A stretch of DNA of 64,000 nt, taken from positions 386 to 64,385 of the forward strand of contig DASXSC010000093.1 in the NCBI GenBank assembly GCA_036506215.1, written 5' to 3'. Origin of the DNA: Pyrinomonadaceae bacterium. Lineage in GTDB: Bacteria; Acidobacteriota; Blastocatellia; Pyrinomonadales; Pyrinomonadaceae. Within the stretch, counting starts at the first letter, position 1; each line of letters begins with the position of its first letter. The notes under the pieces are model-generated. The model searched no databases and was not told where the DNA came from. It saw nothing but the letters and a program-made list of their open reading frames with translations. The translations under genes were made by a program, and so were the position numbers. Below are positions 19,849 through 41,545 of this stretch, in pieces.

Positions 19849-21789
19849 TCAGCTGCGATCAATCCATCGTTCGTACCAAAGGCTCACGTTGAGGAGCGCC
19901 CAGAGATGGAAACTCCACTCACGTGCCTCGCGCCGGTGTTCGTCAAGCAGTTTTGTAACAAACGTATAGTCAAACAGATCGCGGCGGCGGATTGAGGAGT
20001 TCATTATTACTTCGCCCAACATCTCACCGCTATCGCCGCGAAACCATTCACGGACGGGCGCCCCAAAACCGCGCTTGGGACGATAAAGCAAATCTGATGG
20101 CAAGACTTTTTCGAGCGCCTGCTTCAAAATGTGTTTCCCGCTGGCGCCCTTGATCTTGAAATCTACCGAAAGGCCCATCGCGTATTCCACGAGGTGGTGA
20201 TCGAGGAAAGGCACTCGTGCTTCAACAGAAGTGGCCATTGTCATCTTGTCCACGCGCATCAGCAGCAACTCCGGCAGTCGCAGCTTTAGCTCGAGGTACG
20301 TCATACGGGCGGCAAAATCCGAGTTTGGCCTGGCCTGGCTAATGTACTCGAGGTGTTTTCTTACCGCGTCGTATGACGACAAGCCATCGGCCCGGGCACT
20401 CATGTCGCTGGACAAAACCCTGCGTTTGAAAGCTTCGTCGAAGACTATCGCGCCGCCCCAGAAGAGCGATTCGCCGGCGCCTAGCCGGCGCACCAGCTCG
20501 ATGGCCGTGCGTTTGTTGAATGAAGCTTCCATCAGCGGCTTTGCCATCGCCGTTAATGAATGGCGCAGTGCAGCCGGAAGTTTTTGGGCCTGGCTCCAAA
20601 AGAGCTCGTTGATGCGCACGTATTTTCTAAACCAGTCGTAACCGGCAAATATTTCATCGGCTCCTTCGCCAACCTGCACGACGATCGTTCCGGTCTCACG
20701 GGCCAGCTTTGAAACGTAATAGAGCGGCACGCAAACCGGATCGCCAAGTGGTTCATCCTGGTGAAAAACCAAATCGGGCAGAAACTTCTGCATCTCTTTC
20801 TGGCCGATGATTACCTCGTGGTGATCCGTGCCGAAGCGTTTGGCGATCGCTCGCGCACTCTCGAGCTCATTCAGTTCTTTAGTGTCTTCGAAGCCAACGG
20901 TATAGGTTCGTACCGGTTGCGACATCAGTTCCGACATCAGGGCAACGTTGGCTGAAGAATCCACGCCTCCGGAAAGAAATACGCCAAATGGCACGTCTGA
21001 CATCATGCGTTTGCGAATGGAATCTCTCAGCAGCCGCAGAATTTCTTTGCTGTGTTCGACTTCACAGCGCGAGCGCATGCTTTCCGGAAGTTTTTCCGGC
21101 GGCAGCGCGTCCCAATACTGTTTGAGATCGATTGATCCGTCTCGACTAACGACCAGCATGTGGCCGGCAGGTATTTTCTGGATGTTGCGGAACAGCGTGC
21201 GTGGCGCCGGAGTAGTGAGGAAAGTCAGGTAATGATAAAGCGACTCTTCGTTAATCTCGGCTGTAACTGCGGGATGCTTTAGGATGGCTTTGATCTCTGA
21301 AGCGAAGATAAAACGTCCGTCCCGGTGATAAAAATAGAGTGGCTTGACGCCCACGCGATCGCGTGCGAGTACAAGCTGCCCTCGCTCAGCATCCCACAAG
21401 GCGATGCCGAAGTCGCCTTCAATCTCATTGACGAAATCGACGCCGCGCTCTTCGTAGAGATGCAGGATGGTCTCGGAGTCTGTAAGCGAAGTGTACTTGT
21501 GGCCGCGCTTCTCGAGTCCTTCACGTAGATACAGATGGTTGTAAATCTCGCCATTAAAAACCAGCCAGACACGATCCGTGCAACCATGCATCGGCTGGTT
21601 TCCGGCCGGCGAGAGATCAATGATCGACAGACGGCGAAAACCAAGACCGACGCGTCCCTCGTCAAAGAGCGACGCGCCTTCATCGTCTGGTCCACGATGT
21701 CGCATCTCATCGCGCATGCGCTCGATGAGCGGTAAGTCAACCCGCCCTTCGGTTGCGCCATATTCCCAGATTCCGCAGATGCCACACAT
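19849..21789 (-). CDS. asnB: Asparagine synthase (glutamine-hydrolysing) family amidotransferase, paralog 2
   Basis: MCGICGIW N-terminus and SGGVDSS PP-loop. Also 646 aa, but strongly diverged from paralog 1. Confidence 0.9.
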   Translation of the reverse strand: MCGICGIWEYGATEGRVDLPLIERMRDEMRHRGPDDEGASLFDEGRVGLGFRRLSIIDLSPAGNQPMHGCTDRVWLVFNGEIYNHLYLREGLEKRGHKYTSLTDSETILHLYEERGVDFVNEIEGDFGIALWDAERGQLVLARDRVGVKPLYFYHRDGRFIFASEIKAILKHPAVTAEINEESLYHYLTFLTTPAPRTLFRNIQKIPAGHMLVVSRDGSIDLKQYWDALPPEKLPESMRSRCEVEHSKEILRLLRDSIRKRMMSDVPFGVFLSGGVDSSANVALMSELMSQPVRTYTVGFEDTKELNELESARAIAKRFGTDHHEVIIGQKEMQKFLPDLVFHQDEPLGDPVCVPLYYVSKLARETGTIVVQVGEGADEIFAGYDWFRKYVRINELFWSQAQKLPAALRHSLTAMAKPLMEASFNKRTAIELVRRLGAGESLFWGGAIVFDEAFKRRVLSSDMSARADGLSSYDAVRKHLEYISQARPNSDFAARMTYLELKLRLPELLLMRVDKMTMATSVEARVPFLDHHLVEYAMGLSVDFKIKGASGKHILKQALEKVLPSDLLYRPKRGFGAPVREWFRGDSGEMLGEVIMNSSIRRRDLFDYTFVTKLLDEHRREAREWSFHLWALLNVSLWYERWIDRS

Positions 21790-21912: not shown

Positions 21913-24054
21913 TTACCTTTGTAAAACTCTCAAACGTTGATCGTGATCTTCGCCGGCGCACACCGGAACGATCGCCCAGCGAAGTTTACAAGGCATTGTC
22001 ATCTTGGTGATCCAATTCGCCGAAACCGATGGGGCCTTCGAACCATAATGCCGGGAGGTGAACTGGGGTTCCAGTTCCGGAGGCTGATCGAGATCGAGCG
22101 AAGATACAATTAAACGCGCGCCACTCATCTTATCCCACGTGATGACGCCACCGTTGTTGAGGAGGCTTACCTCGAGTCCGGCATCGAAATGGAAACGCGT
22201 GGCAATTTTGTGTTGGCCCTTTCCGCCAATCTCATCCTCGATTAACCACCAGCGATTGACTTTGTCAAAAATAATTGTGCGGCGATGAGTGATCGGTTCG
22301 GCCAAACGCTGGTAGCCGGTATGTTCGGCAACAACCCGGTCATGTTTGGGCGTGCTCTCCCAATCCAAAACGCGCGCTACCGCTTCGCCTCCAGTCACAA
22401 ACGGCGCATCTTCGCGAATTGTTTGTTGCTCCGCGTCGTCAATCTCTATCGTCGAATGGTAGGCGGTCGAGCGAAAAAGATGCCGCTCGCCCAAGTCGGC
22501 CGTGTAAACATACGAGCCTGGGTCAACTATAAAAGCGCAGCCGCAGGCTGAGACCTCCACGCTCAACACGTCGTTGTGTCGATGCGAAGTCGGCCTGCTG
22601 TTATTGGCGCCGTTTGCATTGAACAAAAGATACAGGTCTTCGTGCCGCAGAACATAAGTGCAGGCATCAGGAAACGCCCGTGATGAAGTTTCCTCATTTA
22701 AACTCGTGAGCTGTTCGTAGTCTCGCAAACCTCCTTCGCCTAACAGCCACAACAACTCCTGCGGCGCCTCCACCTGCTCCGGCTTCAATTGCGAATCCTT
22801 AAAAACTGCTGCGCCGATAGCCGGCAGAAACGCGTGATCGCTAGCGCTGCGAGGAACGATTGGCAAGAATTGGCCACCATCCGAATCGCCGATGAGCGGC
22901 GCTAAACCGTCGGGCCGCACAATAGCGCCCAGATAGGCGAGCATAGTATTAAGCTTGCGCCAATATTTGTCTTCAATCTGTATTTCATTCGCTCGGCAAA
23001 GAATGAACGAGTAGAGGAACAGTTCGAGAATAAAGCGCTGGTAGCCCGTCGAACCTTCGTAGTCAGCGCCGTCAAGCAGGATCTGCTTGTCCATCTCGTG
23101 GAGCAATTCATTCAATGCCCATATTCGCCACGCTTCAGCGCGTGCGAGCTCCGGCAGCATGATGGCGATCCATAGCAATCCCGCTAAGTTCGATAGGTAA
23201 TGGTTGCTCGTAGCGATGTGTGAAAACTCGAGGTTGCGACGAATGTGAGCGCCGTGCTGATCGAACATCGCTAACAACATCGACAGTTTTTCTTCGTTGA
23301 GGGCCGGCGAGATTCGGAACAGCGAGAAGGCCGCGAGCAGGTTTATGGCGCGGAGCGCAACTTCCATCGCACACGACCAGTTAGCACCACGTCCGACCGG
23401 GTTTTGTTGGCGCCAGCTTTCGAGCTGGGCGAAAAACTCCGCGGCCAGGTGTTCTTCCCTGGTCAGCGCATACGCGCGGGCGAGCGTGATGAGATGGCCA
23501 AGGCGATTGAGTTCCCACAACAATCTGATGTCTGAACCGTCGCTGTGCCAGAAAGTGATCTCGGCGTGATAGTCGAGTGGCCAGATTCTTCCGGAGAGTG
23601 GATCACGATGCCAGTTTATCGGATCAGCTACCTCACGCGGCCAACCAGCGCGCGAAGAAGGCTCGCCGAATTCTTTCTCCCCAAAACCTAACAACGGCCA
23701 GCGATGTTCTTTAGTGATCAGTTGCGCGGATTCAATCAGCGAGTCAGTTTCATCAGGAAAGAGATCTCGTTGTCGGGAAGCCGTCGAGTCCGCCTGTTGA
23801 AATCCGGGCAGAAATGAAGGCCTCGCGCGTTCGCGAAAGTGTTTCAGTAAAGCGGATGACGAGAGGCTTTGGAATCCAGTTCGCAACTGCGCCGGTCGAG
23901 AAGCGAGCTCATCAAGCATTGCCTGTTCCCGGCGGCGGCGCACAGCAACTCGCCCGCGCCGAAAAGCTTCGCGCGTCGCCCGGCTGAAGCTAATTCGCCC
24001 ACGAAGCACGCTTCGCACCCCTCGCGTCAATGATCTCACAACGACTGCGCTCAT
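21913..24054 (-). CDS. Heparinase II/III family protein (alginate-lyase-like N-domain + heparinase II/III C-domain)
   Basis: DIRLLWELNRLGHLITLARAY and HRHNDVLSVEVSACGCAFIVDPGSYVYT motifs. Start re-set to ATG 24054, 1 nt after the wecB stop, instead of the 62-nt overlapping 24117. Confidence 0.75.
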   Translation of the reverse strand: MSAVVVRSLTRGVRSVLRGRISFSRATREAFRRGRVAVRRRREQAMLDELASRPAQLRTGFQSLSSSALLKHFRERARPSFLPGFQQADSTASRQRDLFPDETDSLIESAQLITKEHRWPLLGFGEKEFGEPSSRAGWPREVADPINWHRDPLSGRIWPLDYHAEITFWHSDGSDIRLLWELNRLGHLITLARAYALTREEHLAAEFFAQLESWRQQNPVGRGANWSCAMEVALRAINLLAAFSLFRISPALNEEKLSMLLAMFDQHGAHIRRNLEFSHIATSNHYLSNLAGLLWIAIMLPELARAEAWRIWALNELLHEMDKQILLDGADYEGSTGYQRFILELFLYSFILCRANEIQIEDKYWRKLNTMLAYLGAIVRPDGLAPLIGDSDGGQFLPIVPRSASDHAFLPAIGAAVFKDSQLKPEQVEAPQELLWLLGEGGLRDYEQLTSLNEETSSRAFPDACTYVLRHEDLYLLFNANGANNSRPTSHRHNDVLSVEVSACGCAFIVDPGSYVYTADLGERHLFRSTAYHSTIEIDDAEQQTIREDAPFVTGGEAVARVLDWESTPKHDRVVAEHTGYQRLAEPITHRRTIIFDKVNRWWLIEDEIGGKGQHKIATRFHFDAGLEVSLLNNGGVITWDKMSGARLIVSSLDLDQPPELEPQFTSRHYGSKAPSVSANWITKMTMPCKLRWAIVPVCAGEDHDQRLRVLQR

Positions 24055-24055
24055 C

Positions 24056-25144
24056 TTAACCGAGCGCGGCGATAATGCGCTCTGCCGTGTGACCATCCCA
24101 AAGCGGAATCCTGACAACCTTTTTCGAGGTTTCGTTAAGCGCCTTAAAAGCTGCGGCGGTGATCTTCGTTGGGTCGCTCCCGACTATTGTGTTTGTTCCC
24201 ATCGTAACTGTAATTGGCCGTTCCGTATTCTCGCGTAAGGTCAGACAGGGAATACCCAAAACGCTCGTCTCTTCCTGAATGCCGCCCGAATCCGTGAGCA
24301 CTAAACGCGCACTGCTGTAGAGACTAAGAAAATCAAGGTACCCGAGCGGGTCAATCAAGCGCAGGCCTTTCACTCTATCTACTCGCATATCCAGGCCAAG
24401 TTCAGCAATTGACTTCCTCGTGCGTGGATGCACAGGGAAAACCAGCGGAAGCCTTTCGCTGATTGCGGCGAGCGCCTCAAGTATTTTTCCGAAGGCGGCC
24501 GGGTCGTCAACATTCGCAGGTCGATGTAGCGTAAGCACTGCATAACTCTTGTCGGTCAATCCCATTTGGTCCTTGATCCGCGATTGCCGGGATTGATCCA
24601 GGTGTTTGCAGAGCGAGTCGATCATGATGTTGCCGACCAGGCGTATTCGTTCCGGTGGAATTCCCTCGGCACGCAAGTTTTCATCTGCGTCGGCGGAAGG
24701 AGTAAAAAGCAGATCGGCAATCTGATCGGTTAGCAGCCGGTTGATCTCTTCTGGCATGGTGCGGTCCCGGCTGCGCAAGCCTGCCTCGACGTGCGCGACC
24801 TTCACGCCTAGTTTCACACAAACAAGCGCGCAGGCGAGCGTGGAATTAACATCGCCTACTACCAGGACCCAATCAGGCTGCTCGCGCAGAACAACGGATT
24901 CGAAGCGCTCCATGATGGCCGCTGTTTGTGCGGCGTGTGAGGCGGAACCAACGCCGAGATAAACATCGGGTTGCGGCAAATCCAGATCGCTGAAGAAAGC
25001 GTCAGACATAGCCGCGTCGTAGTGTTGACCAGTATGAACAACAAGCGGCGTAAACTCTCGTTCACGCCGCTTCATTGCTTCCACAATCGGCGCGACCTTC
25101 ATGAAGTTGGGACGCGCGCCGACAACGTTGATTACTTTAAGCAT
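24056..25144 (-). CDS. wecB: UDP-N-acetylglucosamine 2-epimerase (non-hydrolysing)
   Basis: MLKVINVVGARPNFMKVAPI, HTGQHYD, VHVEAGLRS and LTDSGGIQEE motifs. Confidence 0.92.
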   Translation of the reverse strand: MLKVINVVGARPNFMKVAPIVEAMKRREREFTPLVVHTGQHYDAAMSDAFFSDLDLPQPDVYLGVGSASHAAQTAAIMERFESVVLREQPDWVLVVGDVNSTLACALVCVKLGVKVAHVEAGLRSRDRTMPEEINRLLTDQIADLLFTPSADADENLRAEGIPPERIRLVGNIMIDSLCKHLDQSRQSRIKDQMGLTDKSYAVLTLHRPANVDDPAAFGKILEALAAISERLPLVFPVHPRTRKSIAELGLDMRVDRVKGLRLIDPLGYLDFLSLYSSARLVLTDSGGIQEETSVLGIPCLTLRENTERPITVTMGTNTIVGSDPTKITAAAFKALNETSKKVVRIPLWDGHTAERIIAALG

Positions 25145-25319: not shown

Positions 25320-26657
25320 TTAGAGACGAATTATTCGTGCGCTACTGTCGCGCCTGACATCACCATTGAGCGCGTTCCGCGTATCAATTATCAGCGAACT
25401 GAGTTGGCAAACGCGTTTGTAATCCGTTGCGCTGTGATCGGTGACGATCACCACGCAATCCGTCGAGCGCAACTCTTCATCGGTTAAGGGCACGGAACCG
25501 AGTGGCTCGCCTCCGCCTTCGGTATGCGCGTCGTCAAAGTGAACTTCATTCACAAATGGATCGTGGTAACGCACCTCGGCGCCTTTCGCGCGCAGGCGAT
25601 CGATAATCGACAAGGCCGGACTCTCGCGCACGTCATCAATGTCTTTCTTGTAAGCGACGCCCAACAACAGAATACGTGAACCTTTCATTGCCTTGCGTTC
25701 GTCGTTCAGACCATCCGCAATCAGTTGCACCACATGCTCCGGCATGCGTGAGTTTACTTCCTCCGCGAGGCCGATGAAACGAGAATCGAAACCGTGTTGC
25801 CGTGCCTTCCACGACAGGTAATGCGGATCAAGCGGAATGCAGTGTCCACCGATTCCCGGACCGGGATAGAAAGGCATGAAACCAAAAGGCTTCGTGGCCG
25901 CTGCGCGAATCACTTCCCAGGTGTCGATGTTCAGAGCATAACAGAGTCGCGCCATCTCGTTTGCCATGCCGATGTTCACTGCGCGAAACGTGTTTTCCAA
26001 AAGCTTGGCCGTTTCGGCAACGCGAGCTGAGCTGACGGCATGGACGTCTTTAACAATTTGCGAATAGAGATAAGCGGCAGCTTCGGTGGAATCGGCGGTC
26101 ACGCCACCGACGACCTTGGGAATATTATTCGTTTGAAACTGGGGGTTACCCGGATCAACTCGTTCCGGGGAAAACGCCACCAGAAAATCGACATCGAGCT
26201 TGAGTCCAGTTTCCTCGAACATCGGCACCAGCATTTCGTCGGTAGTGCCGGGATAGGTAGTTGACTCGAGAATGATCAACTGTCCCGCGTGCAGGCGCCG
26301 CTTGATCTCTTCGGCAGCGGCCAGGATGTAAGAAACGTCGGGCTCTTTTGTCTTTCTGAGCGGTGTCGGGACACAGATGATGATGGCATCGCATTCCTTT
26401 AATTGATCGAAATCGGTGGTTGCGCGCAGGCGCTTGCCATCGACAAATTCCTTGACTACCGCGGCCGGCACGTCGCCGATATAAGAATCACCTGCATTAA
26501 TCTGGGCTGCTTTATGCTCGTCAACCTCAAAGCCGGTGGCCTGATAACCACTGCGTGCAAATTCGGCCAGTAGTGGCAAGCCGACATACCCTAAGCCAAC
26601 CACTCCGACATGCGCACGCTTGCGTTTTATCAGAGCAATTATTTGTTCCTTGATCAT
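25320..26657 (-). CDS. wecC: Nucleotide-sugar 6-dehydrogenase (UDP-ManNAc / UDP-GlcNAc dehydrogenase family)
   Basis: VGVVGLGYVGLPL Rossmann motif and GPGIGGHCIPLDP catalytic-Cys motif. Adjacency to wecB favours UDP-ManNAc dehydrogenase, but WbpA-like specificity cannot be excluded. Confidence 0.8.
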   Translation of the reverse strand: MIKEQIIALIKRKRAHVGVVGLGYVGLPLLAEFARSGYQATGFEVDEHKAAQINAGDSYIGDVPAAVVKEFVDGKRLRATTDFDQLKECDAIIICVPTPLRKTKEPDVSYILAAAEEIKRRLHAGQLIILESTTYPGTTDEMLVPMFEETGLKLDVDFLVAFSPERVDPGNPQFQTNNIPKVVGGVTADSTEAAAYLYSQIVKDVHAVSSARVAETAKLLENTFRAVNIGMANEMARLCYALNIDTWEVIRAAATKPFGFMPFYPGPGIGGHCIPLDPHYLSWKARQHGFDSRFIGLAEEVNSRMPEHVVQLIADGLNDERKAMKGSRILLLGVAYKKDIDDVRESPALSIIDRLRAKGAEVRYHDPFVNEVHFDDAHTEGGGEPLGSVPLTDEELRSTDCVVIVTDHSATDYKRVCQLSSLIIDTRNALNGDVRRDSSARIIRL

Positions 26658-29574: not shown

Positions 29575-32500
29575 ATGGCTCAGTCCTTACCTGCCAACCA
29601 TATTGAGGCGCAGATCGGAGATGTTAGCGGCGGCAGCCAGGTGGCGATCGGCAGCTATATCGTACAGATCGGTCGCATCGAAGGTGGTGTGGTCAACATT
29701 CTCAATGGACCGCCCACTTACCCGCGTTCACGACCACAGCCGGTTTTACTACTTCCGCGAGCATTCCCAGGCATCCTGGACCGCGTGACTGAATCTTCTA
29801 ATGCCATCCAGGCACTTCAATCGAAGGAGTCGGTGGAGTGTAGCGGCGAGCCCGGCTCGGGCAAGACCAGTTTGATTCGCCACCTCGCCTATCAATCGCA
29901 GGTTTCCGGTTTCACCGCCGGCGTGGTCTATTTTCAAGTCAACCAACAATCCAACGATGATCTTCTGAAATCACTCTTCGACGCCTTCTACGAATACGAT
30001 TCGCCAGTCAAGCCGACCGAAACCGAAATCCGTCATTACTTGCAGGCCCTGAGTGCGCTGATTCTGCTCGACGACGTGGAGGCTACTTCGGAGCAAATCG
30101 AATCGTTGATGAACATAGCGCCGCACTGCACTTTCATCGCTGCCACGGCGAAGCGTCGGCTCTTTGGGGAAACGCGCGAGGTCACGCTAAAGGGATTGCC
30201 TACAGCCGAAGCGGTAGATTTGTTTCAACGCGAGTTTGGCCGTGCCTTGTCACCCGAAGAACAGAAGGGCGCGCAGTATTTATGTGAATCGGTGGACTGT
30301 ATTCCGCAGCGCGTTTTGCGAGCCGCCCACGAGGCGCGCGAGGAAAATCGTTCGCTGCTGGAAATTGTTCCGCAAGCGAAATCACCGTCTCTGGACCAGA
30401 CGCTCGCAGCCGCGGAAGTCAAACCGCGCTCGGAAGATCAAAAGAAAGTACTGGCTGCGCTGGCTGTTTTCTACGGCGCCCCGATCGCTGCGCAACATGT
30501 GGCCGCCGTCGCCGGCGTCTTTGGCGTTACGGAAATGCTCGACGATTTCGAAAAACGCGGGCTGGTTCAATCACATGAAAAACGCTACACGTTGGCAAGC
30601 GATGTGAACAACGCGCTGCTGGGCGATCTTCAACCCTGGCTAACGCGCGCCCTGGCCCACTTTGTCGAGTGGACTGAGGAGCACCGTAGCCAACCTGAGG
30701 TCATTGCGGAATCAGCGCAACCGATCTTACTCATTCTGCAGTGGGCGGTCGCGGCCAAACATTGGCGAGAGGCGAAACGCCTGGGCCATGCGACTGAAGA
30801 AGCACTGGCGCTAAGTGGCAAGTGGGACATGTGGGCCACTGCACTGCAAAGCATTCTGAAGGCCGCTCAGGGGCTGCAGGATCGTCCGAACGAAGCCTGG
30901 GCCCTGCATCAAATCGGCACGCGCGCCCTTTGTTTGGGCGCACGATCCGCAGCCCTGACTTCGCTGAATGCAGCCCTCGCGCTCAGAGAGTCGCTCAACG
31001 ACCAGAGCGGCGTGGCAGTAACACGTCACAACCTGAATATTCTTTTAGCTCCTCCACCACCACCATCTGAACCCGATGATTCCTCGGGGCGTGGAGTCGG
31101 TGCAGGAGCCGCTGCGATTCCGGTGGCGCTCAAAGTCGGGGTGCTTGTTCTGCTGGCTTTGGTAGTGGCGCTATTAGTCTGGTGGCTTTGGCCTCGAAAG
31201 CCGCCAGTTACGACGGCCAGAATTGTGAGTTTCACTGTCGATCCCGCCACTGTTCCCGCGAACGGTCAGGCCAAACTTTGCTACGAAGTCGAGGATGCCG
31301 GCTACGTTCTCATTGAACCGAACATTGGCGAAAAAAAGCCGGCATCAAAGGAGTGCCTACCGGTCACTGCTGAACAGACAACAACCTATACGCTTAAGGC
31401 CTTCGGTTCGGACGCAAAAGAAATCACTCAGCAGGTTACCCTCAACGTTGAAACGGCGCCGCCAATGGCTCAGATAGGTCGCTTTGAAGTTTTGCGCGAG
31501 AACGGTCCTGGCGGTGAAAGCGACGTGCAGTTTCGTCTTTGCTATGAGGTGCGAAACGCAGCTCATGCGGAAATCGACAACAACGGTGGAGCAGTGGTAC
31601 TGGATCAAAACCACTGCCAGCAAATCAGTCCTGAAGGGATCATCACCTACACCCTTTCTGCCACTGGGTTGGACGGCCGCACAGTTACGCGCCAGGCTAC
31701 CGCCGATGCCACGAAACCTCCATCGCGACCTCCTCAGGTTTTGAGTTTCGAAGCGTTACCCGGAAGCATCGTGCTTGGCGAAAAAGCGCAGCTATGCTTT
31801 CACCTGAAGGACGCGAGCAGCGTGCAAATTGATCCCGGCGTTCCCAACGTGGAAGCCGGAACTGAGAAACGTTGTGTTAGCGTCGCGCCGATTAAAACAA
31901 CGACCTACTCGCTGACGGCCCTCAACTCCGAAGGCAAGGCTAGCCTAAAGCAGGCAACAATTAGAGTGAGGATACCGGCGCCGCAAATAGTCAGCTTCAC
32001 CGCGCAACCAAATTCACTCAAAGACGAGGGAACTGTCCAACTTTGTTACGAGGTGCTTCATGCCGGCAACTTACAAATAGATCAAGGGATTGGCGAGGTC
32101 AGACCGAGTAAGGGTTGTGTCGATGCTAAAGTTGCTGAAACAACCACTTTCACCTTGACTGCCACTGGAGATGGGGGAGTGGAGAAGGGTCAAGCCAGAA
32201 TCACATTCACGCACTCACCGCTCGAAGTAGAGTTCACCGCGGAGCCGCAAACTATCACTGTGCCCGATGCAGCGTCGCTCTGTTATTCCGTTAGTCAGCC
32301 CGCCACGATCACAATTGATCACGGCGGCGGCCGATTTCGCGCTCCGAATCCAGGAAAGAGAGATTGCGTCAAGGTGCAACCAAAGCAGACGACAACCTAC
32401 ACATTGACTGCGGTTGGTTCGTTCAATCGCACAGAGAGCAGACAGGTCACGGTTACTGTCAAAGAGTCACCCCCGGAACGGAAGCACGCTCGGATACTCT

Positions 32501-33516
32501 TTTTCGAAGTTACGCCCACGCGCATCAAGTCCGGAGAACGCGTCCAGGTGTGTTATGGAGTCGCCGATGCGATTCGAGCCGGCATCGCCCCGCTTAGGAG
32601 AGAGATCGCCCTCCTGGAGAAAGAGTGCATTAACGACTCACCGGAAAAATCAACGCGGTACGTCTTGAGTGCGACGGGCGAAGATCAACAAGCTGAGCGC
32701 AGCACGGTAAACGTAATAGTGGATGAGCCGGAGCCGGCGAAACACGCCCGAATTATTGATTTCAACCCTTCCGAGACCCGCATCAAAGCCGGCGCATCCG
32801 TTCGCTTGTGCTACGTGATTGCCGACGCGCAACACGCTTCCATGGCGCCTATCAGCAGAGAAGTGCCTGCCGAAAAGGACTGCATTAGCGATTCTCCGAA
32901 AAGATCAACGCGGTATGTCTTGAGGGCGGTGGGCGAAGATCAACAAGCTGTAAGTCGCGCGGTAACTGTGGAAGTTGAGGAACCGGCTGGGGCGCCTCCC
33001 GTCAGGATTACGCGTCTCGAAATCAAGCGGACCATACTTCGCGGTATGCAGATATGTTATGCGGTCGAAAATGCTGTCAGCGCCAATATTGATCCGGAAT
33101 TTGGCGCCGTGAATTTGCCTGCCGATTGTAAGACTATCAGATCGACCAAGCCGACAACCTTCACGCTAACGGCAAGAGACGCGAATGGGAATAGTGATCA
33201 AAGAAGCGTGAACTACACTCCTCGCGAACAGCCCCAGGAAACACCAATCAGAATCAAATCCTTTACTCCTGCGACCCAGGTCATCAACTTGGGCGCGCGA
33301 GCTAAAATCTGCTACAGCACTGACGGCAATGGCACGGCGGAGATTTCGCCTGAGCCGGGTACCGTGTCGCCTTCAATCCTGGGCATCCAGCGTTGTGTCA
33401 ATGTTTCTCCGAAGGAGAGTACGGTCTATACGCTAACGGTAACGGGCCCGCAGGGACAAAAGGACAGTAGAAGAGTCACTGTCAGAGTACAAAAGCCGGG
33501 GATTGTGATTCAATGA
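29575..33516 (+). CDS. NB-ARC/AP-ATPase-like STAND NTPase - winged helix - TPR-like - Pro-rich linker - single TM helix - nine ~85-aa Cys-pair Ig-like repeats
   Basis: SD aaaggag lies 7 nt upstream. Motifs in order: Walker A GEPGSGKTSL (nt 29845-29868), Walker B ALILLDDVE, TFIAATAKRR, VTLKGLPTAEAVDLFQREFG, C-IPQRVLRAA. TM at aa 512-539 (nt ~31108-31191). Repeats run from nt 31216, each with 'LCY...C...TTYTL'. Confidence 0.8.
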   Translation: MAQSLPANHIEAQIGDVSGGSQVAIGSYIVQIGRIEGGVVNILNGPPTYPRSRPQPVLLLPRAFPGILDRVTESSNAIQALQSKESVECSGEPGSGKTSLIRHLAYQSQVSGFTAGVVYFQVNQQSNDDLLKSLFDAFYEYDSPVKPTETEIRHYLQALSALILLDDVEATSEQIESLMNIAPHCTFIAATAKRRLFGETREVTLKGLPTAEAVDLFQREFGRALSPEEQKGAQYLCESVDCIPQRVLRAAHEAREENRSLLEIVPQAKSPSLDQTLAAAEVKPRSEDQKKVLAALAVFYGAPIAAQHVAAVAGVFGVTEMLDDFEKRGLVQSHEKRYTLASDVNNALLGDLQPWLTRALAHFVEWTEEHRSQPEVIAESAQPILLILQWAVAAKHWREAKRLGHATEEALALSGKWDMWATALQSILKAAQGLQDRPNEAWALHQIGTRALCLGARSAALTSLNAALALRESLNDQSGVAVTRHNLNILLAPPPPPSEPDDSSGRGVGAGAAAIPVALKVGVLVLLALVVALLVWWLWPRKPPVTTARIVSFTVDPATVPANGQAKLCYEVEDAGYVLIEPNIGEKKPASKECLPVTAEQTTTYTLKAFGSDAKEITQQVTLNVETAPPMAQIGRFEVLRENGPGGESDVQFRLCYEVRNAAHAEIDNNGGAVVLDQNHCQQISPEGIITYTLSATGLDGRTVTRQATADATKPPSRPPQVLSFEALPGSIVLGEKAQLCFHLKDASSVQIDPGVPNVEAGTEKRCVSVAPIKTTTYSLTALNSEGKASLKQATIRVRIPAPQIVSFTAQPNSLKDEGTVQLCYEVLHAGNLQIDQGIGEVRPSKGCVDAKVAETTTFTLTATGDGGVEKGQARITFTHSPLEVEFTAEPQTITVPDAASLCYSVSQPATITIDHGGGRFRAPNPGKRDCVKVQPKQTTTYTLTAVGSFNRTESRQVTVTVKESPPERKHARILFFEVTPTRIKSGERVQVCYGVADAIRAGIAPLRREIALLEKECINDSPEKSTRYVLSATGEDQQAERSTVNVIVDEPEPAKHARIIDFNPSETRIKAGASVRLCYVIADAQHASMAPISREVPAEKDCISDSPKRSTRYVLRAVGEDQQAVSRAVTVEVEEPAGAPPVRITRLEIKRTILRGMQICYAVENAVSANIDPEFGAVNLPADCKTIRSTKPTTFTLTARDANGNSDQRSVNYTPREQPQETPIRIKSFTPATQVINLGARAKICYSTDGNGTAEISPEPGTVSPSILGIQRCVNVSPKESTVYTLTVTGPQGQKDSRRVTVRVQKPGIVIQ

Positions 33517-33598: not shown

Positions 33599-34027
33599 AT
33601 GAATGCCGAAAAGAACTCGGGTGATTCGATTAGCGCCAACATCGGTGACGTAACAGAGCGAAGTCAGGTGGCGGTGGGAAAGGGAATTACTCAAACCCAG
33701 AGCTACAGTGCCACGCCGGTCGTAACTGCGGAGGACAGAGCCCAGCTGCAACAGATGTTCGAAGAACTGAAAGCAACGATTGAGCAGGAAGTTGCCGCTA
33801 CTGAAAAAGAAAAAGCGCTCGAACGGGTAGATGAATTGCAGCAGGCGGTCACCGCTAAAGAACCCGACTTAACCACCATGGAATACGTCAGGAATTGGTT
33901 CGGCAAAAACGTTCCGTCCGCGGCGAGTGCGGTGGTCGACTTCATCGTGCATCCGCTGGTAGCTAAGTTTGTGGCAGCCGGTGGCAAAGCTTTGGCTGCC
34001 ACTTTTCGCGAACGTTTTGGCGGCTGA
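33599..34027 (+). CDS. Small hypothetical protein sharing the N-terminal 'IGDV-x3-SQVA-G' motif with the upstream NTPase; coiled-coil plus amphipathic/hydrophobic C-terminus
   Basis: SD caggagacaaaac-ATG. NIGDVTERSQVAVGKG matches QIGDVSGGSQVAIGSY in the upstream protein. Heptad-like EDRAQLQQMFEELKATIEQEV. C-terminal VVDFIVHPLVAKFVAAGGKALAA. Confidence 0.6.
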   Translation: MNAEKNSGDSISANIGDVTERSQVAVGKGITQTQSYSATPVVTAEDRAQLQQMFEELKATIEQEVAATEKEKALERVDELQQAVTAKEPDLTTMEYVRNWFGKNVPSAASAVVDFIVHPLVAKFVAAGGKALAATFRERFGG

Positions 34028-39936: not shown

Positions 39937-40470
39937 TCATCCCTCTTCCTTAAGTTGTGGCATTGGCCTCGGATTGGATCCGGGCGCCGGACCGGGTCGA
40001 CGTCCAGGTACGGACCCTGATATCCGCTTGATTGCCTGAAGCTTTGCCTGCTGCTCAAGTGTCAGCTTGTTCTTGATTCGAATAACAAGTCCGACGTGCA
40101 GGTGCTTGATTTCGCGTTCGGCATCGAGCACCTTGTCGAGTTGAGCCAGGGCTTGTTGCTCGTTTACTGTACTCTCTTTCATCGTCGAGCCCAACGCTTC
40201 CATTGCATCCTGCAACTGCCACTGAAGCTCATTGAAGCGCACTGTGACTCGTTGAATTTCCCCGCGCATGAATACCTTCTGTTCGTCCGTCAGTCCGATT
40301 TCTCGCTGATGCTGCATGACCAGTTCAGGGGGAAACATCGAGTCGCCGAGCGGATCATTCTCGGGCCGCGGGGGTTGTGGCTGCTGCGCTGAAGTAAACA
40401 CCACACTGAAAAGAACCGCGGCAACCAGCAGTATGACTAATCCAGGTTTTGTTTTCATTGACTTCTCCAT
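39937..40470 (-). CDS. Periplasmic Spy/CpxP-family (LTxxQ) protein
   Basis: Signal peptide, GLTDEQK and KLTLEQQAKLQ motifs. The start abuts the anti-sigma stop. Confidence 0.7.
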   Translation of the reverse strand: MEKSMKTKPGLVILLVAAVLFSVVFTSAQQPQPPRPENDPLGDSMFPPELVMQHQREIGLTDEQKVFMRGEIQRVTVRFNELQWQLQDAMEALGSTMKESTVNEQQALAQLDKVLDAEREIKHLHVGLVIRIKNKLTLEQQAKLQAIKRISGSVPGRRPGPAPGSNPRPMPQLKEEG

Positions 40471-41019
40471 TCAGTTCGTGCCATTCGGCAAGAATGCTTC
40501 CATCTCATGTAAGTTCTGGTTCAGTTGAGGAAGGGTCCTGAACACTTCATCACCGGGCGATCGCAGTAGGGTGGCTGTTGGTGATCGCCATCGCGAGAGA
40601 GCAATTGCATCGCGCGTGGTTGATCGCCTTAACGCGAGTTTCGCCGCTTGGCTGCGCGGCGCGAATCCCAGGCGTCGTGGCCTGCGGATAACGCGCCTGA
40701 CTTGCTGCACTAACTCCGGGTCCTTTTTGATTTGTGCGGGGCTAGCTTCAGGTTTGACAGCTCCGCTCGCGACCGCGTCAATCGATCGCGGCTTACGTTG
40801 CCAATGTCTTGATAAGAAGGCGAGCGAGAAGAGTGCAAAGCAAACGATGACTACTGCCACCGCCATGCGAAAGTCGACCGCGGTCTTTCGTCGGGCGCTT
40901 TTGATGTGCGCTCGGTTCCACACGGCGGCAAATCGTGGCATGACGCGTTCGTCCTCGAGTCTCAGCTCACGAAACAACGCTCGGATTCTTCTCTCCTCTC
41001 CACTTAACGCCATAACCAA
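40471..41019 (-). CDS. Putative anti-sigma factor (single-pass membrane protein)
   Basis: Position downstream of the ECF sigma; N-terminal RALFRELRLEDERVMPRF; one TM helix (VAVVIVCFALFSLAFL). The 53-nt overlap with the sigma gene makes the start uncertain (alternative ATG 40944). Confidence 0.55.
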   Translation of the reverse strand: MVMALSGEERRIRALFRELRLEDERVMPRFAAVWNRAHIKSARRKTAVDFRMAVAVVIVCFALFSLAFLSRHWQRKPRSIDAVASGAVKPEASPAQIKKDPELVQQVRRVIRRPRRLGFAPRSQAAKLALRRSTTRDAIALSRWRSPTATLLRSPGDEVFRTLPQLNQNLHEMEAFLPNGTN

Positions 41020-41545
41020 TCTCCGATGGTCCCAAAGATTCGCGCAATCGTTTCTTTCCCCGCTCGTAATGCCGGCGCACGCTACCGACCGAGATATTCA
41101 TCACGTCCGCGGCTTCTCGCAAGCTGAGGTCCTGGTAAAAGACCAGATGCAGTGTTTGTCGCTGGCGTAACGGCAACCGTTCCAGCGCTTGCTGAAATCG
41201 TATCTGCATCTCCGATCTTTCAACCGCCGCATCTGGCCCTTCGGCCGGAGAGATCCTGTCAGCTTTCCCTTGCGGCTCACCACACAATCTCAGCTTTCGC
41301 AGCAGATTCTTGCGCTGCTCCGCCGCCGCCGTCTTGTAAATCACGGCAAATAGCCACGTTCTGAATGACGACTCGCCACGAAAGCGCGCTTTGCCTTCAA
41401 GGATCTTCAAATAGACCGTCTGCAGAACTTCCTCTGCTTCTCCGCGGTCGCGTCGGCAACAACTCAAGGCCCAGCCGAAACTGGAACTGTGCAGCTTCTC
41501 CAGCTCAGCCTCCAAAGCCGAGATGTTCATTCGGTCTACCTTCAC
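40967..41545 (-). CDS. ECF-type RNA polymerase sigma-70 family factor
   Basis: Region 2 (VLQTVYLKILEG...FRTWLFAVIYKTA) and region 4 (LPLRQRQTLHLVFYQDLSLREAADVMNISVGSVRRH). Confidence 0.85.
   Translation of the reverse strand: MKVDRMNISALEAELEKLHSSSFGWALSCCRRDRGEAEEVLQTVYLKILEGKARFRGESSFRTWLFAVIYKTAAAEQRKNLLRKLRLCGEPQGKADRISPAEGPDAAVERSEMQIRFQQALERLPLRQRQTLHLVFYQDLSLREAADVMNISVGSVRRHYERGKKRLRESLGPSEIGYGVKWRGEKNPSVVS

What the first reader, a model, noticed from the sequence alone, without database searches (positions are those of the whole stretch)
29575..33516. NB-ARC-like STAND NTPase wired through a single TM helix to nine extracytoplasmic Cys-pair Ig-like repeats
Seen, in order along the 1313-aa protein:
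- A short Gly/Val/Ile-rich N-terminal motif.
- Walker A GEPGSGKTSL, then Walker B ALILLDDVE.
- TFIAATAKRR (RNBS-B/'TTR'-like).
- VTLKGLPTAEAVDLFQREFG (the L-x2-L-x3-EA-x2-LF motif of AP-ATPases).
- A GxP-like segment (DCIPQRVLRAA).
- A winged-helix-like region (...FEKRGLVQSHEKRYTL).
- One or two TPR-like units, then a PPPPPSEPDD linker.
- A hydrophobic helix at aa 512-539 followed by PRKPP.
- Nine tandem ~80-90-aa repeats. Each has the pattern (I/V)xxFxxxP...(A/V)x(L/I)CYxV...(I/A)xP...C......TT(Y/F)TLTA, with two invariant Cys.

Established knowledge: STAND/NB-ARC proteins are cytosolic switches whose C-terminal repeats bind the trigger. Paired Cys in Ig-like domains usually signal an oxidising (periplasmic or extracellular) compartment.

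Inference: this is a STAND switch whose ligand-sensing array lies outside the cytoplasmic membrane, giving receptor-like 'outside-in' signalling. No recognisable enzymatic effector domain is fused.
Basis: partly seen in the sequence, partly recalled or inferred. Interest (0 to 1): 0.75.

Follow-up and report, generated by a model that had tools for sequence, protein, structure and literature searches.

The report
Membrane-spanning NLR-like receptor with partner gene
This gene encodes a bacterial relative of plant and animal NLR immune switches that is anchored in the cell membrane with nine disulfide-type Ig-like domains outside, and it shares a short N-terminal motif with the small gene next to it, which is probably its output.

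Summary
ORF 29575-33516 encodes a 1313-aa protein. Its parts in order are a 37-aa Gly/Val/Ile/Gln-rich motif, an Apaf-1/NB-ARC-type STAND module, one strongly hydrophobic helix (aa 512-539) and nine Ig-like repeats. The STAND assignment rests on an AF2 model (pLDDT 83) whose best PDB matches are Apaf-1, CED-4 and NRC.

Each repeat carries one Cys pair. Across homologues, 409 of 413 repeats have exactly two Cys, and the two are lost or shifted together.

This is one member of a large unnamed family: 1,808 clusters at 50% identity and at least 223 species, in Acidobacteriota, Chloroflexota, Cyanobacteria and others. The STAND module and the helix are constant. The outer domains are swapped (LysM, PAN, FN3, Ig, beta-helix).

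The downstream gene 33599-34027 (142 aa) starts with the same motif. In relatives, neighbouring motif-bearing genes encode a caspase, CHAT or TIR domain. This matches the logic of known NLR/effector "amyloid signalling" pairs.

Best reading: an outside-in envelope sensor that activates a separately encoded, probably membrane-active effector. Topology, ligand and effector activity are inferred. Transmembrane STANDs and motif pairs have been noted in the literature, so this is a new variant of a known kind.

The parts
29575..33516 (+). Gene for the 1313-aa membrane-spanning NB-ARC-like STAND protein, with an AGGAG ribosome-binding site 8 nt upstream
29596..29706 (+). N-terminal motif, aa 8-44 (HIEAQIGDVSGGSQVAIGSYIVQIGRIEGGVVNI). 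It is built of pseudo-repeats of the form h-x-h-x-h-G and includes a V-Q-I-G tetrad. It is conserved across the family and shared with the neighbouring gene.
   Evidence: modelled as short beta strands with pLDDT 69-80
29782..30189 (+). P-loop nucleotide-binding domain, aa ~70-205. Walker A is at aa 91-98, Walker B at aa 161-167, and the sensor-I-like R194 follows.
30202..30615 (+). Helical domain (aa 210-264, with the GxP-like P244) and winged-helix domain (aa 273-347). Together they correspond to the ARC1/ARC2 parts of NB-ARC.
30631..31047 (+). TPR-like alpha-solenoid, aa 353-491 (about seven helices). It contains the family signature WALHQIGTR.
31108..31191 (+). Single hydrophobic, predicted transmembrane helix, aa 512-539. 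A PPPPPSEPDD linker precedes it and PRKPP follows it.
31213..33513 (+). Nine tandem Ig-like repeats, aa 547-1313, each with one conserved Cys pair. This is the predicted extracytoplasmic (periplasmic) array.
33599..34027 (+). Partner gene, 142 aa, 82 nt downstream on the same strand, with its own AGGAG site. It has no known family. It is the putative effector.
33626..33694 (+). Partner N-terminal motif, aa 10-32 (SISANIGDVTERSQVAVGKGITQ), matching the first half of the STAND motif
33917..33979 (+). Partner C-terminal conserved hydrophobic segment, aa ~107-127, preceded by a conserved helix (ALERVDEL...EPDLTTMEYVxNWF). It is a candidate membrane-active element.

Best explanation
This is a two-gene signalling module.

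Gene 1 encodes a single-pass inner-membrane protein. Its cytoplasmic part is an Apaf-1/NB-ARC-type STAND switch (NBD, helical domain, winged helix, TPR-like arm). Its outer part is a rod of nine disulfide-stabilised Ig-like domains in the periplasm.

The proposed sequence of events is as follows. A cue at the outer array (ligand binding, or a disturbance of the envelope) is passed through the helix to the adjoining TPR-like arm. This releases the closed, ADP-type state. The NBDs exchange nucleotide and oligomerise on the inner face of the membrane. Oligomerisation brings the N-terminal beta-strand motifs together. The clustered motifs capture or template the matching motif at the N-terminus of the 142-aa product of gene 2. 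That switches on the partner's helical/hydrophobic C-terminal domain, which most likely damages the membrane. The result would be an abortive-infection or regulated cell-death type of output.

Shown here: the domain folds, the conserved helix, the Cys-pair behaviour, the shared motif, the conserved gene pairing, and the substitution of the small partner by caspase, CHAT or TIR proteins in relatives.

Inferred: the topology, the direction of signalling, the trigger, motif-mediated activation, and the partner's activity.
For: **Cytoplasmic STAND module.**
- Profile hits to solved STAND and NLR proteins.
- A confident AF2 model that superposes best on ADP-bound Apaf-1, and also on CED-4, NRC and MalT.

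**Membrane helix.**
- It is the only strongly hydrophobic segment in the protein.
- It is conserved at a fixed distance from Walker A in 120 of 127 evaluable representatives and in 56 of 59 genome copies.
- Family-wide, K+R is higher on the N-terminal flank (1.98 against 1.38, n=135).

**Outer location.**
- The repeats have an Ig-like fold.
- The Cys pair is kept, lost or moved in concert.
- Relatives carry LysM, PAN, FN3, beta-helix, FGE-sulfatase and solute-binding domains in that position.
- The ectodomain diverges faster than the cytoplasmic module, for example 67% against 88% identity in P0002. The copy number varies from 1 to 10.

**Output.**
- The same motif opens the adjacent gene in the window, in L001 and in L002.
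- It does so in 17 further pairs matched by shared contig length.
- It does so across phyla, including Nostoc.
- Within-pair motif identity exceeds all 5000 permutations.
- In other family loci the motif-bearing neighbour is a caspase plus Zn ribbon (8 loci), a CHAT protein or a TIR protein. Some family members instead have CHAT or DUF4062 fused N-terminally.
- The partner's C-terminus has a conserved hydrophobic segment of borderline transmembrane strength.

**Precedent.** NLR N-terminal motifs that match adjacent Bell, TIR2 or CHAT effectors signal by amyloid templating (bioRxiv 10.1101/2020.01.06.895854; 10.1101/2024.11.07.622273).

**Context.** A second STAND/TIR system lies about 10 kb away.
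Against: - No experiment or dedicated topology predictor was available.
- For this particular protein the charged residues flanking the helix are ambiguous: PRKPP lies on the C-terminal side.
- The model coordinates could not be read, so the Cys-Cys distance was not measured.
- The Cys residues sit in strands B and E, not in the canonical B-F pair of Ig domains.
- The partner has no detectable homology to Bell, EACC1 or any known pore former. It has only a weak PADLOC hit, PDC-M14B at 7e-5.
- The partner's motif is N-terminal, unlike Bell-type effectors.
- Only the first half of the STAND motif is shared with the small partner.
- Only about a third of family genes in genome loci have a detectable motif-bearing neighbour: 21 of 75, with 12 more truncated by contig ends.
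- A subset of the family has Walker A Lys replaced by Arg.
- There is no PADLOC defence-system match for the STAND protein itself.
Confidence: 0.5

Rival explanations
1. Inside-out or anchoring role. The STAND module senses a cytoplasmic cue through its TPR-like arm. The Ig array is then an output or a tether (adhesion, cell-wall or outer-membrane attachment, spacing of the envelope), not a sensor.
For: The TPR-like arm (aa 353-491) is highly conserved, and in cytosolic STANDs such arms bind the trigger. Ig, FN3 and LysM arrays are common in adhesins and wall-binding proteins. Nine domains would be long enough to span a periplasm (inference).
Against: The variable part of the family is the ectodomain, and the cytoplasmic part is constant. 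That is the pattern expected of a sensor. Motif-linked caspase, TIR and CHAT partners are cytoplasmic outputs, so a second, external output is not needed.
Confidence: 0.15
2. The same machinery is used not for anti-phage defence but for kin or neighbour recognition, or for developmental cell death in aggregating or filamentous bacteria. This would be analogous to fungal NLR-based incompatibility.
For: The family is concentrated in filamentous or aggregate-forming lineages: Anaerolineae, Nostoc, Scytonema, Herpetosiphon. The ectodomains are fast-evolving and copy-number variable. The published BASS systems are enriched in multicellular bacteria (10.1101/2020.01.06.895854).
Against: The family is also found in many Acidobacteriota and Gemmatimonadota MAGs that are not known to be multicellular. 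A neighbouring nSTAND1/TIR pair suggests a defence locus. Nothing here separates the two uses.
Confidence: 0.15
3. The shared motif is a plain heterodimerisation or autoinhibition strand, and the small protein is a regulator (inhibitor, chaperone or adaptor) rather than an effector. The true output would lie elsewhere, or would be the oligomer itself.
For: The partner has no recognisable toxic domain. AF2 models the STAND motif as ordered strands in the monomer. In L032 the neighbour carries the motif followed by a helical region that, by eye only, looks like a known adaptor (EAD) domain; it matched no NCBIfam or PADLOC model. Most family genes lack a detectable partner.
Against: The same genomic slot and the same motif are used by caspase, CHAT and TIR proteins, which are effectors. 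The partner's C-terminal domain is highly conserved across four phyla and has a hydrophobic core.
Confidence: 0.15
4. The hydrophobic segment is not membrane-spanning, and the whole protein is cytosolic.
For: No topology experiment has been done. The charge bias is ambiguous for this protein.
Against: - The Kyte-Doolittle 19-mer score is 3.0, with a core of about 23-28 residues flanked by Pro-rich linkers.
- The segment is conserved across a family whose C-terminal domains are LysM, PAN and solute-binding.
- The Cys pairs behave as disulfides.
Confidence: 0.03

Closest known systems
Apaf-1 / CED-4 / plant NLR NB-ARC (AP-ATPase clade of STAND NTPases)
   Same: Both have the same NBD, helical domain and winged-helix core, followed by a helical arm. 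The best structural matches are to this group. Walker A and B, the sensor-I Arg and the GxP proline are conserved.
   Different: Those proteins are soluble, with cytosolic WD40 or LRR sensors and fused CARD, CC or TIR outputs. Here a membrane helix and an external Ig array follow the helical arm, and the output is recruited through a short motif. Pfam NB-ARC is below threshold on this sequence.
Bacterial NLR/Bell 'BASS' amyloid-signalling gene pairs and Bab/Agp (10.1101/2020.01.06.895854; 10.1101/2024.11.07.622273)
   Same: A G/V/Q/I-rich motif of about 25 aa sits at the N-terminus of the STAND protein and is repeated in the product of the adjacent gene. The same motif type is also linked to TIR and CHAT effectors. 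A h-Q-h-G tetrad is present on the STAND side.
   Different: The receptor here is membrane-spanning, with an external sensor. The small partner carries the motif at its N-terminus, not its C-terminus, and is not a Bell domain by any search. Amyloid formation was not tested. The motif string was not found in the searchable literature.
'Transmembrane STAND ATPases' and TM-containing bacterial NACHT proteins mentioned in surveys (10.1101/2025.11.14.688446; 10.1101/2022.07.19.500537)
   Same: These are STAND NTPases with membrane segments in candidate defence contexts.
   Different: They are mentioned only in passing, in figure-level architecture lists. They have protease fusions or belong to the NACHT clade. 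This NB-ARC-like family, its motif and its partner are not described there.
Sea-cucumber transmembrane NLR with extracellular Ig and intracellular NACHT (cited in PMC13133943)
   Same: The overall architecture is the same: Ig domain(s) outside, one membrane pass, and a STAND NTPase inside.
   Different: That protein is animal, belongs to the NACHT clade and is evolutionarily independent. No motif-coupled partner is described for it.
Single-pass bacterial receptors with a large cytoplasmic N-terminal enzyme and external repeats, such as PknB-type Ser/Thr kinases with PASTA repeats (own knowledge)
   Same: The topology is the same: N-terminus inside and C-terminus outside, with a tandem external repeat array acting as the sensor.
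   Different: The cytoplasmic module there is a kinase, not an oligomerising NTPase switch.

Membership tests
STAND NTPase, AP-ATPase/NB-ARC clade | P-loop NTPase with Walker A GxxxxGK[ST] and Walker B hhhhDD | tested here: met
   GEPGSGKT is at aa 91-98 and ALILLDD at aa 161-167. G91, G94, G96, K97, T98 and D166 are invariant in the alignment.
STAND NTPase, AP-ATPase/NB-ARC clade | NBD, helical domain and winged-helix domain arranged as in Apaf-1, CED-4 and plant NLRs | tested here: met
   The AF2 model has pLDDT 82.8. The top Foldseek matches are 1z6t and 3shf (Apaf-1; E 6e-10 and 2e-9, TMq 0.53-0.57), followed by CED-4, NRC1 NB-ARC, MalT and PH0952.
STAND NTPase, AP-ATPase/NB-ARC clade | Significant match to the curated Pfam NB-ARC model (PF00931) | tested here: inconclusive
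   This protein scores 20.8 bits against a cut-off of 23.5, E 2.5e-4. Many homologues have precomputed PF00931 hits. The family profile hits the solved STAND PH0952 at 8e-7 and the plant NLR 9jbn at 3e-5.
STAND NTPase, AP-ATPase/NB-ARC clade | Nucleotide-dependent oligomerisation switch | not testable with these tools
   This needs biochemistry.
Single-pass membrane receptor (N-in, C-out) | One hydrophobic helix of transmembrane length, conserved in the family | tested here: met
Single-pass membrane receptor (N-in, C-out) | C-terminal part located outside the cytoplasm | tested here: inconclusive
   The indirect evidence is the behaviour of the Cys pair, the LysM, PAN, FN3 and solute-binding domains in relatives, and a family-wide K+R bias of 1.98 against 1.38. 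For this protein the flanking charges are ambiguous. No reporter fusion or topology predictor was available.
Ig-like beta-sandwich repeats | Seven-strand sandwich fold | tested here: met
   AF2 on repeat 4 gives pLDDT 87.4 and seven strands. Foldseek finds Ig domains of PTP-delta, titin and SoxY at TMq 0.60-0.65, with E no better than 2e-3. The profile hits the Ig-like protein 9ncf at 8e-6 and the KIAA0319L PKD domains at 9e-5.
Ig-like beta-sandwich repeats | Intradomain disulfide | tested here: inconclusive
   Exactly two Cys occur in 409 of 413 repeats, and they are lost or shifted together. They lie in the neighbouring strands B and E.
NLR-associated amyloid signalling (BASS-type) gene pair | Short motif at the NLR N-terminus repeated in the product of an adjacent gene | tested here: met
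   The permutation test gave 0 of 5000.
NLR-associated amyloid signalling (BASS-type) gene pair | Effector is a Bell/HeLo-like helical domain with the motif at its C-terminus | tested here: not met
   The small partner has the motif at its N-terminus and no Pfam, NCBIfam or PDB match. The caspase and CHAT partners of relatives do carry the motif C-terminally.
NLR-associated amyloid signalling (BASS-type) gene pair | Motif forms amyloid or prion-like fibrils and templates the partner | not testable with these tools
   Only composition (rich in G, V, I, Q and S, with no Pro) and predicted beta strands are available. There was no Pfam RHIM hit at E<=1.
Known anti-phage defence systems (PADLOC models) | Significant match to a catalogued defence protein | tested here: not met
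   For the STAND protein, the best hit is mad8 at 5.5e-4, over the P-loop region only. For the partner, the best hit is the candidate family PDC-M14B at 7e-5.

The most novel reading that the evidence does not exclude
This is a large family spanning several phyla of bacterial NLR-like receptors. They read signals outside the cytoplasmic membrane through swappable ectodomains. They relay the signal across a single helix to an oligomerising STAND switch, which fires separately encoded death effectors through a shared prion-like motif. Those effectors are a caspase, CHAT, TIR, or a new family of 142-aa membrane-active proteins. In effect, a surface pattern-recognition receptor and an NLR are fused in one bacterial protein.
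Probability: 0.4. Interest if true: 0.8.

Novelty: new variant of a known kind. Interest (0 to 1): 0.62.

Why it matters
NLR/STAND switches are textbook intracellular sensors. Sensing outside the cell is normally left to separate surface receptors.

A widespread bacterial family that couples an external, fast-evolving sensor array directly to an Apaf-1-like switch would show that STAND oligomerisation can be driven across a membrane. It would also open the question of what envelope-level cue is being watched: phage adsorption, wall damage or neighbouring cells.

The module is compact, at two genes, and it occurs in a cultured Nostoc (Nostoc paludosum FACHB-159). The partner is an unannotated family of at least 887 clusters with no known fold match. 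Both the signalling step and a possibly new effector are therefore directly testable.

Tried and rejected
**Searches that gave no assignment**
- Pfam, NCBIfam and PADLOC on the whole protein gave only sub-threshold P-loop or STAND hits. A family profile and a structure model were therefore needed.
- The top PDB sequence hits to Midasin come from six summed P-loop matches and were discarded.
- The partner was searched against Pfam, NCBIfam, PADLOC and PDB by profile. Only weak, non-specific hits came back: DUF4404, a VapB-like family, PDC-M14B and hemerythrin. No assignment was made.
- EACC1 was considered as the partner's family, because the caspase partner of relatives resembles NCBIfam 'caspase, EACC1-associated type' at 96 bits, below the 140-bit cut-off. 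It was rejected because the small partner matched neither library, the best hits being non-specific.
- A RHIM/BASS3 relationship was suggested by the V-Q-I-G tetrad. No Pfam RHIM hit was found and no BASS models were available, so this stays a lead.
- Literature searches for the motif string and for 'transmembrane NLR/STAND' found no description of this family. They found only passing mentions.

**Analyses that were uninformative or blocked**
- The promoter and terminator scan was uninformative.
- The positive-inside rule gave only a modest family-level signal and is ambiguous for this protein.
- Model coordinates are not exposed, so the Cys-Cys distance and the packing of the N-terminal motif could not be examined.

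Full report
**1. The observation**

The ORF 29575..33516 on the + strand is open for 1313 codons, and the reverse strand is riddled with stops. An AGGAG ribosome-binding site lies 8 nt before the ATG.

A Kyte-Doolittle scan finds one strongly hydrophobic stretch, aa 512-539. Its 19-residue maximum is 3.0, and nothing else in the protein exceeds 1.6. The region after it holds 18 Cys, and the 511 residues before it hold 5. The 18 Cys fall into nine pairs spaced 24-28 residues apart, in repeats with a period of 79-90 residues.

**2. The cytoplasmic half is an Apaf-1/NB-ARC-type STAND module**

On the single sequence, Pfam gives only marginal hits over aa 74-191: AAA_22 at 6e-7, nSTAND3 at 7e-5, NB-ARC at 2.5e-4 (below its cut-off) and NACHT at 7e-4. 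NCBIfam and PADLOC add nothing.

I aligned aa 1-548 with 27 homologues (A1). Walker A, Walker B D166, LxGLP (aa 205-209) and P244 of the GxP-like segment are invariant. R194 is nearly invariant.

The profile of this alignment matches two solved proteins over long stretches. One is the STAND protein PH0952 (8e-7, profile positions 153-354). The other is the plant NLR At5g04720 (3e-5, positions 77-299). The higher-ranked Midasin hits are six summed P-loop matches and were ignored.

AlphaFold2 on A1 gave a good model, with pLDDT 82.8 and pTM 0.79. It contains:
- a five-stranded P-loop domain;
- a helical domain at aa 210-264;
- a winged helix at aa 273-347;
- about seven further helices at aa 353-491;
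- a disordered linker;
- a helix at aa 518-538.

The best Foldseek matches in the PDB are ADP-bound Apaf-1 (1z6t, E 6e-10, TMq 0.53; 3shf, TMq 0.57). PH0952, MalT, CED-4, the tomato NRC1 NB-ARC domain, NRC3/NRC4 and Avs3 follow.

**3. The repeats are Ig-like and their Cys behave as a pair**

A repeat HMM finds 1-10 copies in 76 of the 120 listed homologues. I made an alignment of 104 non-redundant repeat units (A2).

- AF2 on repeat 4 gave a seven-strand model with pLDDT 87.4. The Cys lie in strand 2 (B) and strand 5 (E).
- The Foldseek matches are all Ig domains (PTP-delta, titin, Dscam, SoxY), with TMq 0.60-0.65. The E-values are weak, no better than 2e-3.
- The profile hits an 'Immunoglobulin-like domain protein' (9ncf, 8e-6) and the PKD domains of KIAA0319L (9e-5).

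Among 413 repeat instances, 405 have both canonical Cys. Three related ones have lost both, four have both moved to new positions, and only one has a single Cys. In total, 409 of 413 have exactly two Cys. This concerted behaviour is what a structural disulfide predicts, and it points to an oxidising compartment. I could not read the model coordinates, so the Cys-Cys distance is unmeasured. A B-E pairing is also not the canonical B-F disulfide of Ig domains.

**4. This is one member of a large, uncharacterised family defined by STAND plus helix plus a variable outer part**

The word-indexed search returned 251 homologues. Close ones come from Pyrinomonadaceae and Gemmatimonadaceae MAGs and share the whole architecture. 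Distant ones share only the first 37-42% of the query, and after the hydrophobic helix they carry LysM, FN3, CARDB, PAN/Apple, solute-binding or ASH/HYDIN-type Ig domains.

An exhaustive HMM search of 1.84 billion cluster representatives found 1,808 clusters at E<=1e-30. The 150th best still scores 1e-164 over essentially the whole profile. Of the top 150, 127 have a canonical Walker A. Of those, 120 have a hydrophobic 19-mer scoring at least 1.6, at a median of 431 residues downstream, followed by a median of 336 further residues.

A scan of one genome per species found relatives in 223 candidate stretches. The taxa are:
- Acidobacteriota (Pyrinomonadaceae, Blastocatellia, Vicinamibacterales, Thermoanaerobaculia);
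- Gemmatimonadaceae;
- many Chloroflexota (Anaerolineae, Thermoflexia, Caldilineaceae, Herpetosiphon);
- Cyanobacteria (Nostoc, Scytonema, Tolypothrix, Argonema);
- Armatimonadota;
- Actinomycetota.

The window itself is 98% identical to a soil Acidobacteriota MAG (L005).

In 56 of 59 family proteins from these loci, the helix follows the conserved WALHQxGTR signature. Pfam on 48 post-helix regions lists Ig_Rha78A_N (7), HYDIN/ASH Ig (6), FN3 (4), DUF1573, beta-helix, LysM, PAN and FGE-sulfatase.

Across 135 proteins the hydrophobic core has a median of 23 residues. K+R is higher on the N-terminal flank (1.98 against 1.38). For the window protein itself the flanks are ambiguous, because PRKPP follows the helix.

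The window also encodes a TonB-type outer-membrane barrel. The organism is therefore diderm, and 'outside' means the periplasm.

Among close relatives the ectodomain diverges faster than the cytoplasmic module: 67 against 88% identity (P0002) and 59 against 85% (P0004). Repeats 6 and 7 are 56% identical, which indicates a recent duplication.

**5.

The 37-residue N-terminal motif is conserved across the whole family. The family consensus is IQGEISGQVAVGNxIxQIGSVHGGVVNI, and it is kept even when zinc ribbons precede it.

The gene 82 nt downstream (33599..34027, 142 aa, with its own AGGAG site) begins SISANIGDVTERSQVAVGKGITQ. The target begins HIEAQIGDVSGGSQVAIGSYIVQ.

The same small gene follows the homologue in L001 and L002. 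In 17 further cases a STAND homologue and a small-protein homologue share a contig of the same length. In one of these the NCBI locus tags are consecutive (VF290_11590/11595).

I built a motif HMM and searched it against every ORF of the 84 loci. It finds motif-bearing neighbours of several kinds:
- the small protein of about 140-150 aa with an N-terminal motif, in Acidobacteriota, Gemmatimonadota, Chloroflexota and Nostoc;
- proteins of about 360 aa with a C-terminal motif, in eight Anaerolineae/Thermoflexia loci;
- an upstream 529-aa protein;
- a downstream protein in an Acidimicrobiia locus.

Pfam identifies these as Peptidase_C14 caspase plus Zn ribbon, CHAT, and TIR_2. PADLOC agrees on the caspase, SAVED_CHAT-like and ThsB-like TIR assignments. 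Other family members have CHAT, DUF4062 or FHA domains fused N-terminally instead.

Within-pair motif identity is 10.3 of 24 residues, against 7.9 +/- 0.5 for shuffled pairs. None of 5000 shuffles reached the observed value. Shared ancestry contributes to this figure.

At a strict threshold, 21 of 75 family genes have such a neighbour and 12 more are cut by contig ends. Pairing is therefore common but not universal.

**6. The partner**

The small protein belongs to a family of at least 887 clusters at 90% identity. Nearly all are 140-150 aa, all are 'hypothetical', and none has a Pfam domain. Profile searches of the PDB, Pfam and NCBIfam give nothing significant. PADLOC gives a weak hit to the candidate family PDC-M14B (7e-5).

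After the motif come a conserved helix (ALERVDELxxAVTAKEPDLTTMEYVxNWF) and a conserved hydrophobic stretch (LPxxAGxVVxLIVHPxVGKxVxxGG). The stretch has borderline transmembrane strength, with a Kyte-Doolittle score of 1.63-1.78.

**7. Mechanism**

The arrangement reproduces the logic described for fungal and bacterial NLR/effector pairs that signal through a short amyloid-forming motif. In those pairs a motif sits at the STAND N-terminus, the same motif is in the adjacent gene product, and it is interchangeable with TIR, CHAT or caspase effectors. Examples are BASS1-10 with Bell, TIR2 and CHAT effectors (bioRxiv 10.1101/2020.01.06.895854) and BASS11 in the E. coli Bab/Agp abortive-infection system (10.1101/2024.11.07.622273).

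I therefore propose the following. An extracytoplasmic cue acts on the Ig array. The single helix and the adjoining TPR-like arm release the ADP-type closed state, which is the state the model resembles. The NBDs oligomerise on the inner membrane face. The clustered N-terminal motifs recruit or template the partner's motif. The partner's C-terminal domain then acts, most likely on the membrane.

The folds, the helix, the Cys pair, the motif pairing and the effector substitutions are shown. Topology, direction of signalling, trigger, templating and partner activity are inferred.

A second, classical STAND system lies about 10 kb away: nSTAND1-TPR at 43959..47741 next to a TIR_2/DUF4062 gene at 47741..49354. 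This weakly supports a defence context.

**8. Rivals**

- The array could be an anchor or an output rather than a sensor. This is less likely, because the ectodomain is the variable part and the outputs are cytoplasmic enzymes.
- The system could serve kin recognition or developmental death rather than phage defence. The data here cannot separate these uses.
- The small protein could be a regulator rather than an effector.
- The helix might not span the membrane. This is very unlikely.

**9. Comparison with the literature and novelty**

Each ingredient is known. Membrane-associated STANDs have been noticed only in passing. 'Transmembrane STAND ATPases' appear among the sensors fused to Pepco-associated proteases (10.1101/2025.11.14.688446). 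A class of bacterial NACHT proteins has C-terminal TM segments (10.1101/2022.07.19.500537). An animal precedent with the same overall layout, extracellular Ig and intracellular NACHT, is cited for a sea cucumber (PMC13133943).

I found no description of this NB-ARC-like family, its motif or its partner. I rate it a new variant of a known kind: a membrane-spanning NLR-like receptor family with motif-coupled effectors and a new small partner family.

Interest is moderate to high. The family is large and the module is compact and testable, but the key functional claims are still inferences.

Noticed in passing
window 43959-49354 (- strand): There is a second NLR-like system about 10 kb from the target. 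A 1260-aa nSTAND1 (Pfam 1.8e-101) plus TPR protein lies at 43959..47741. The gene directly upstream of it (47741..49354, 537 aa) carries TIR_2 and DUF4062 domains. Two STAND systems in 20 kb suggest a defence island.
   Followed up: partly
homologues P0037-39, P0045, P0047, P0048, P0052, P0056, P0059, P0061: A subset of close family members has Arg in place of the Walker A Lys (GxxGxGRT). The change may alter or abolish nucleotide handling. The proteins are otherwise intact, with a helix and 2-7 repeats.
   Followed up: no
L006 9059-9481 (+) and 9736-10158 (-): One Pyrinomonadaceae contig carries two copies of the small partner gene next to the STAND gene, in opposite orientation and with identical motif regions. 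This may be an inverted duplication or an assembly artefact at a contig end.
   Followed up: no
L010, L012, L014, L017, L018, L022, L033, L042: In Anaerolineae loci, the STAND protein begins with zinc ribbon(s) followed by the motif. The adjacent caspase ends with the motif followed by a zinc ribbon. The ribbon and the motif therefore travel together as a shared module. L009 and L010 each carry two family genes in tandem.
   Followed up: partly
L032 6918-7343: In this locus the small neighbour keeps a doubled N-terminal motif, but its C-terminal half is different (ELRTLCFDLGIDYDDLP...). By eye it resembles effector-associated adaptor (EAD/Death-like) domains. It has no NCBIfam or PADLOC hit; Pfam was not run on it.
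   Followed up: partly
window 546-26657: There is a polysaccharide-type gene cluster upstream of the target. It contains two asparagine-synthase-like genes (546..2486 and 19849..21789), a fused GT2+GT1 glycosyltransferase (17585..19747), a heparinase II/III-like gene (21913..24117) and a UDP-glucose/GDP-mannose dehydrogenase (25320..26657).
   Followed up: no
window 39937-41545 (- strand): There is an ECF-type sigma factor at 40967..41545. It is followed by a small ORF I did not analyse (40471..41019) and by a periplasmic Metal_resist/Spy-like protein (39937..40470). This is an envelope-stress module a few kb from the target, with no evident link to it.
   Followed up: no
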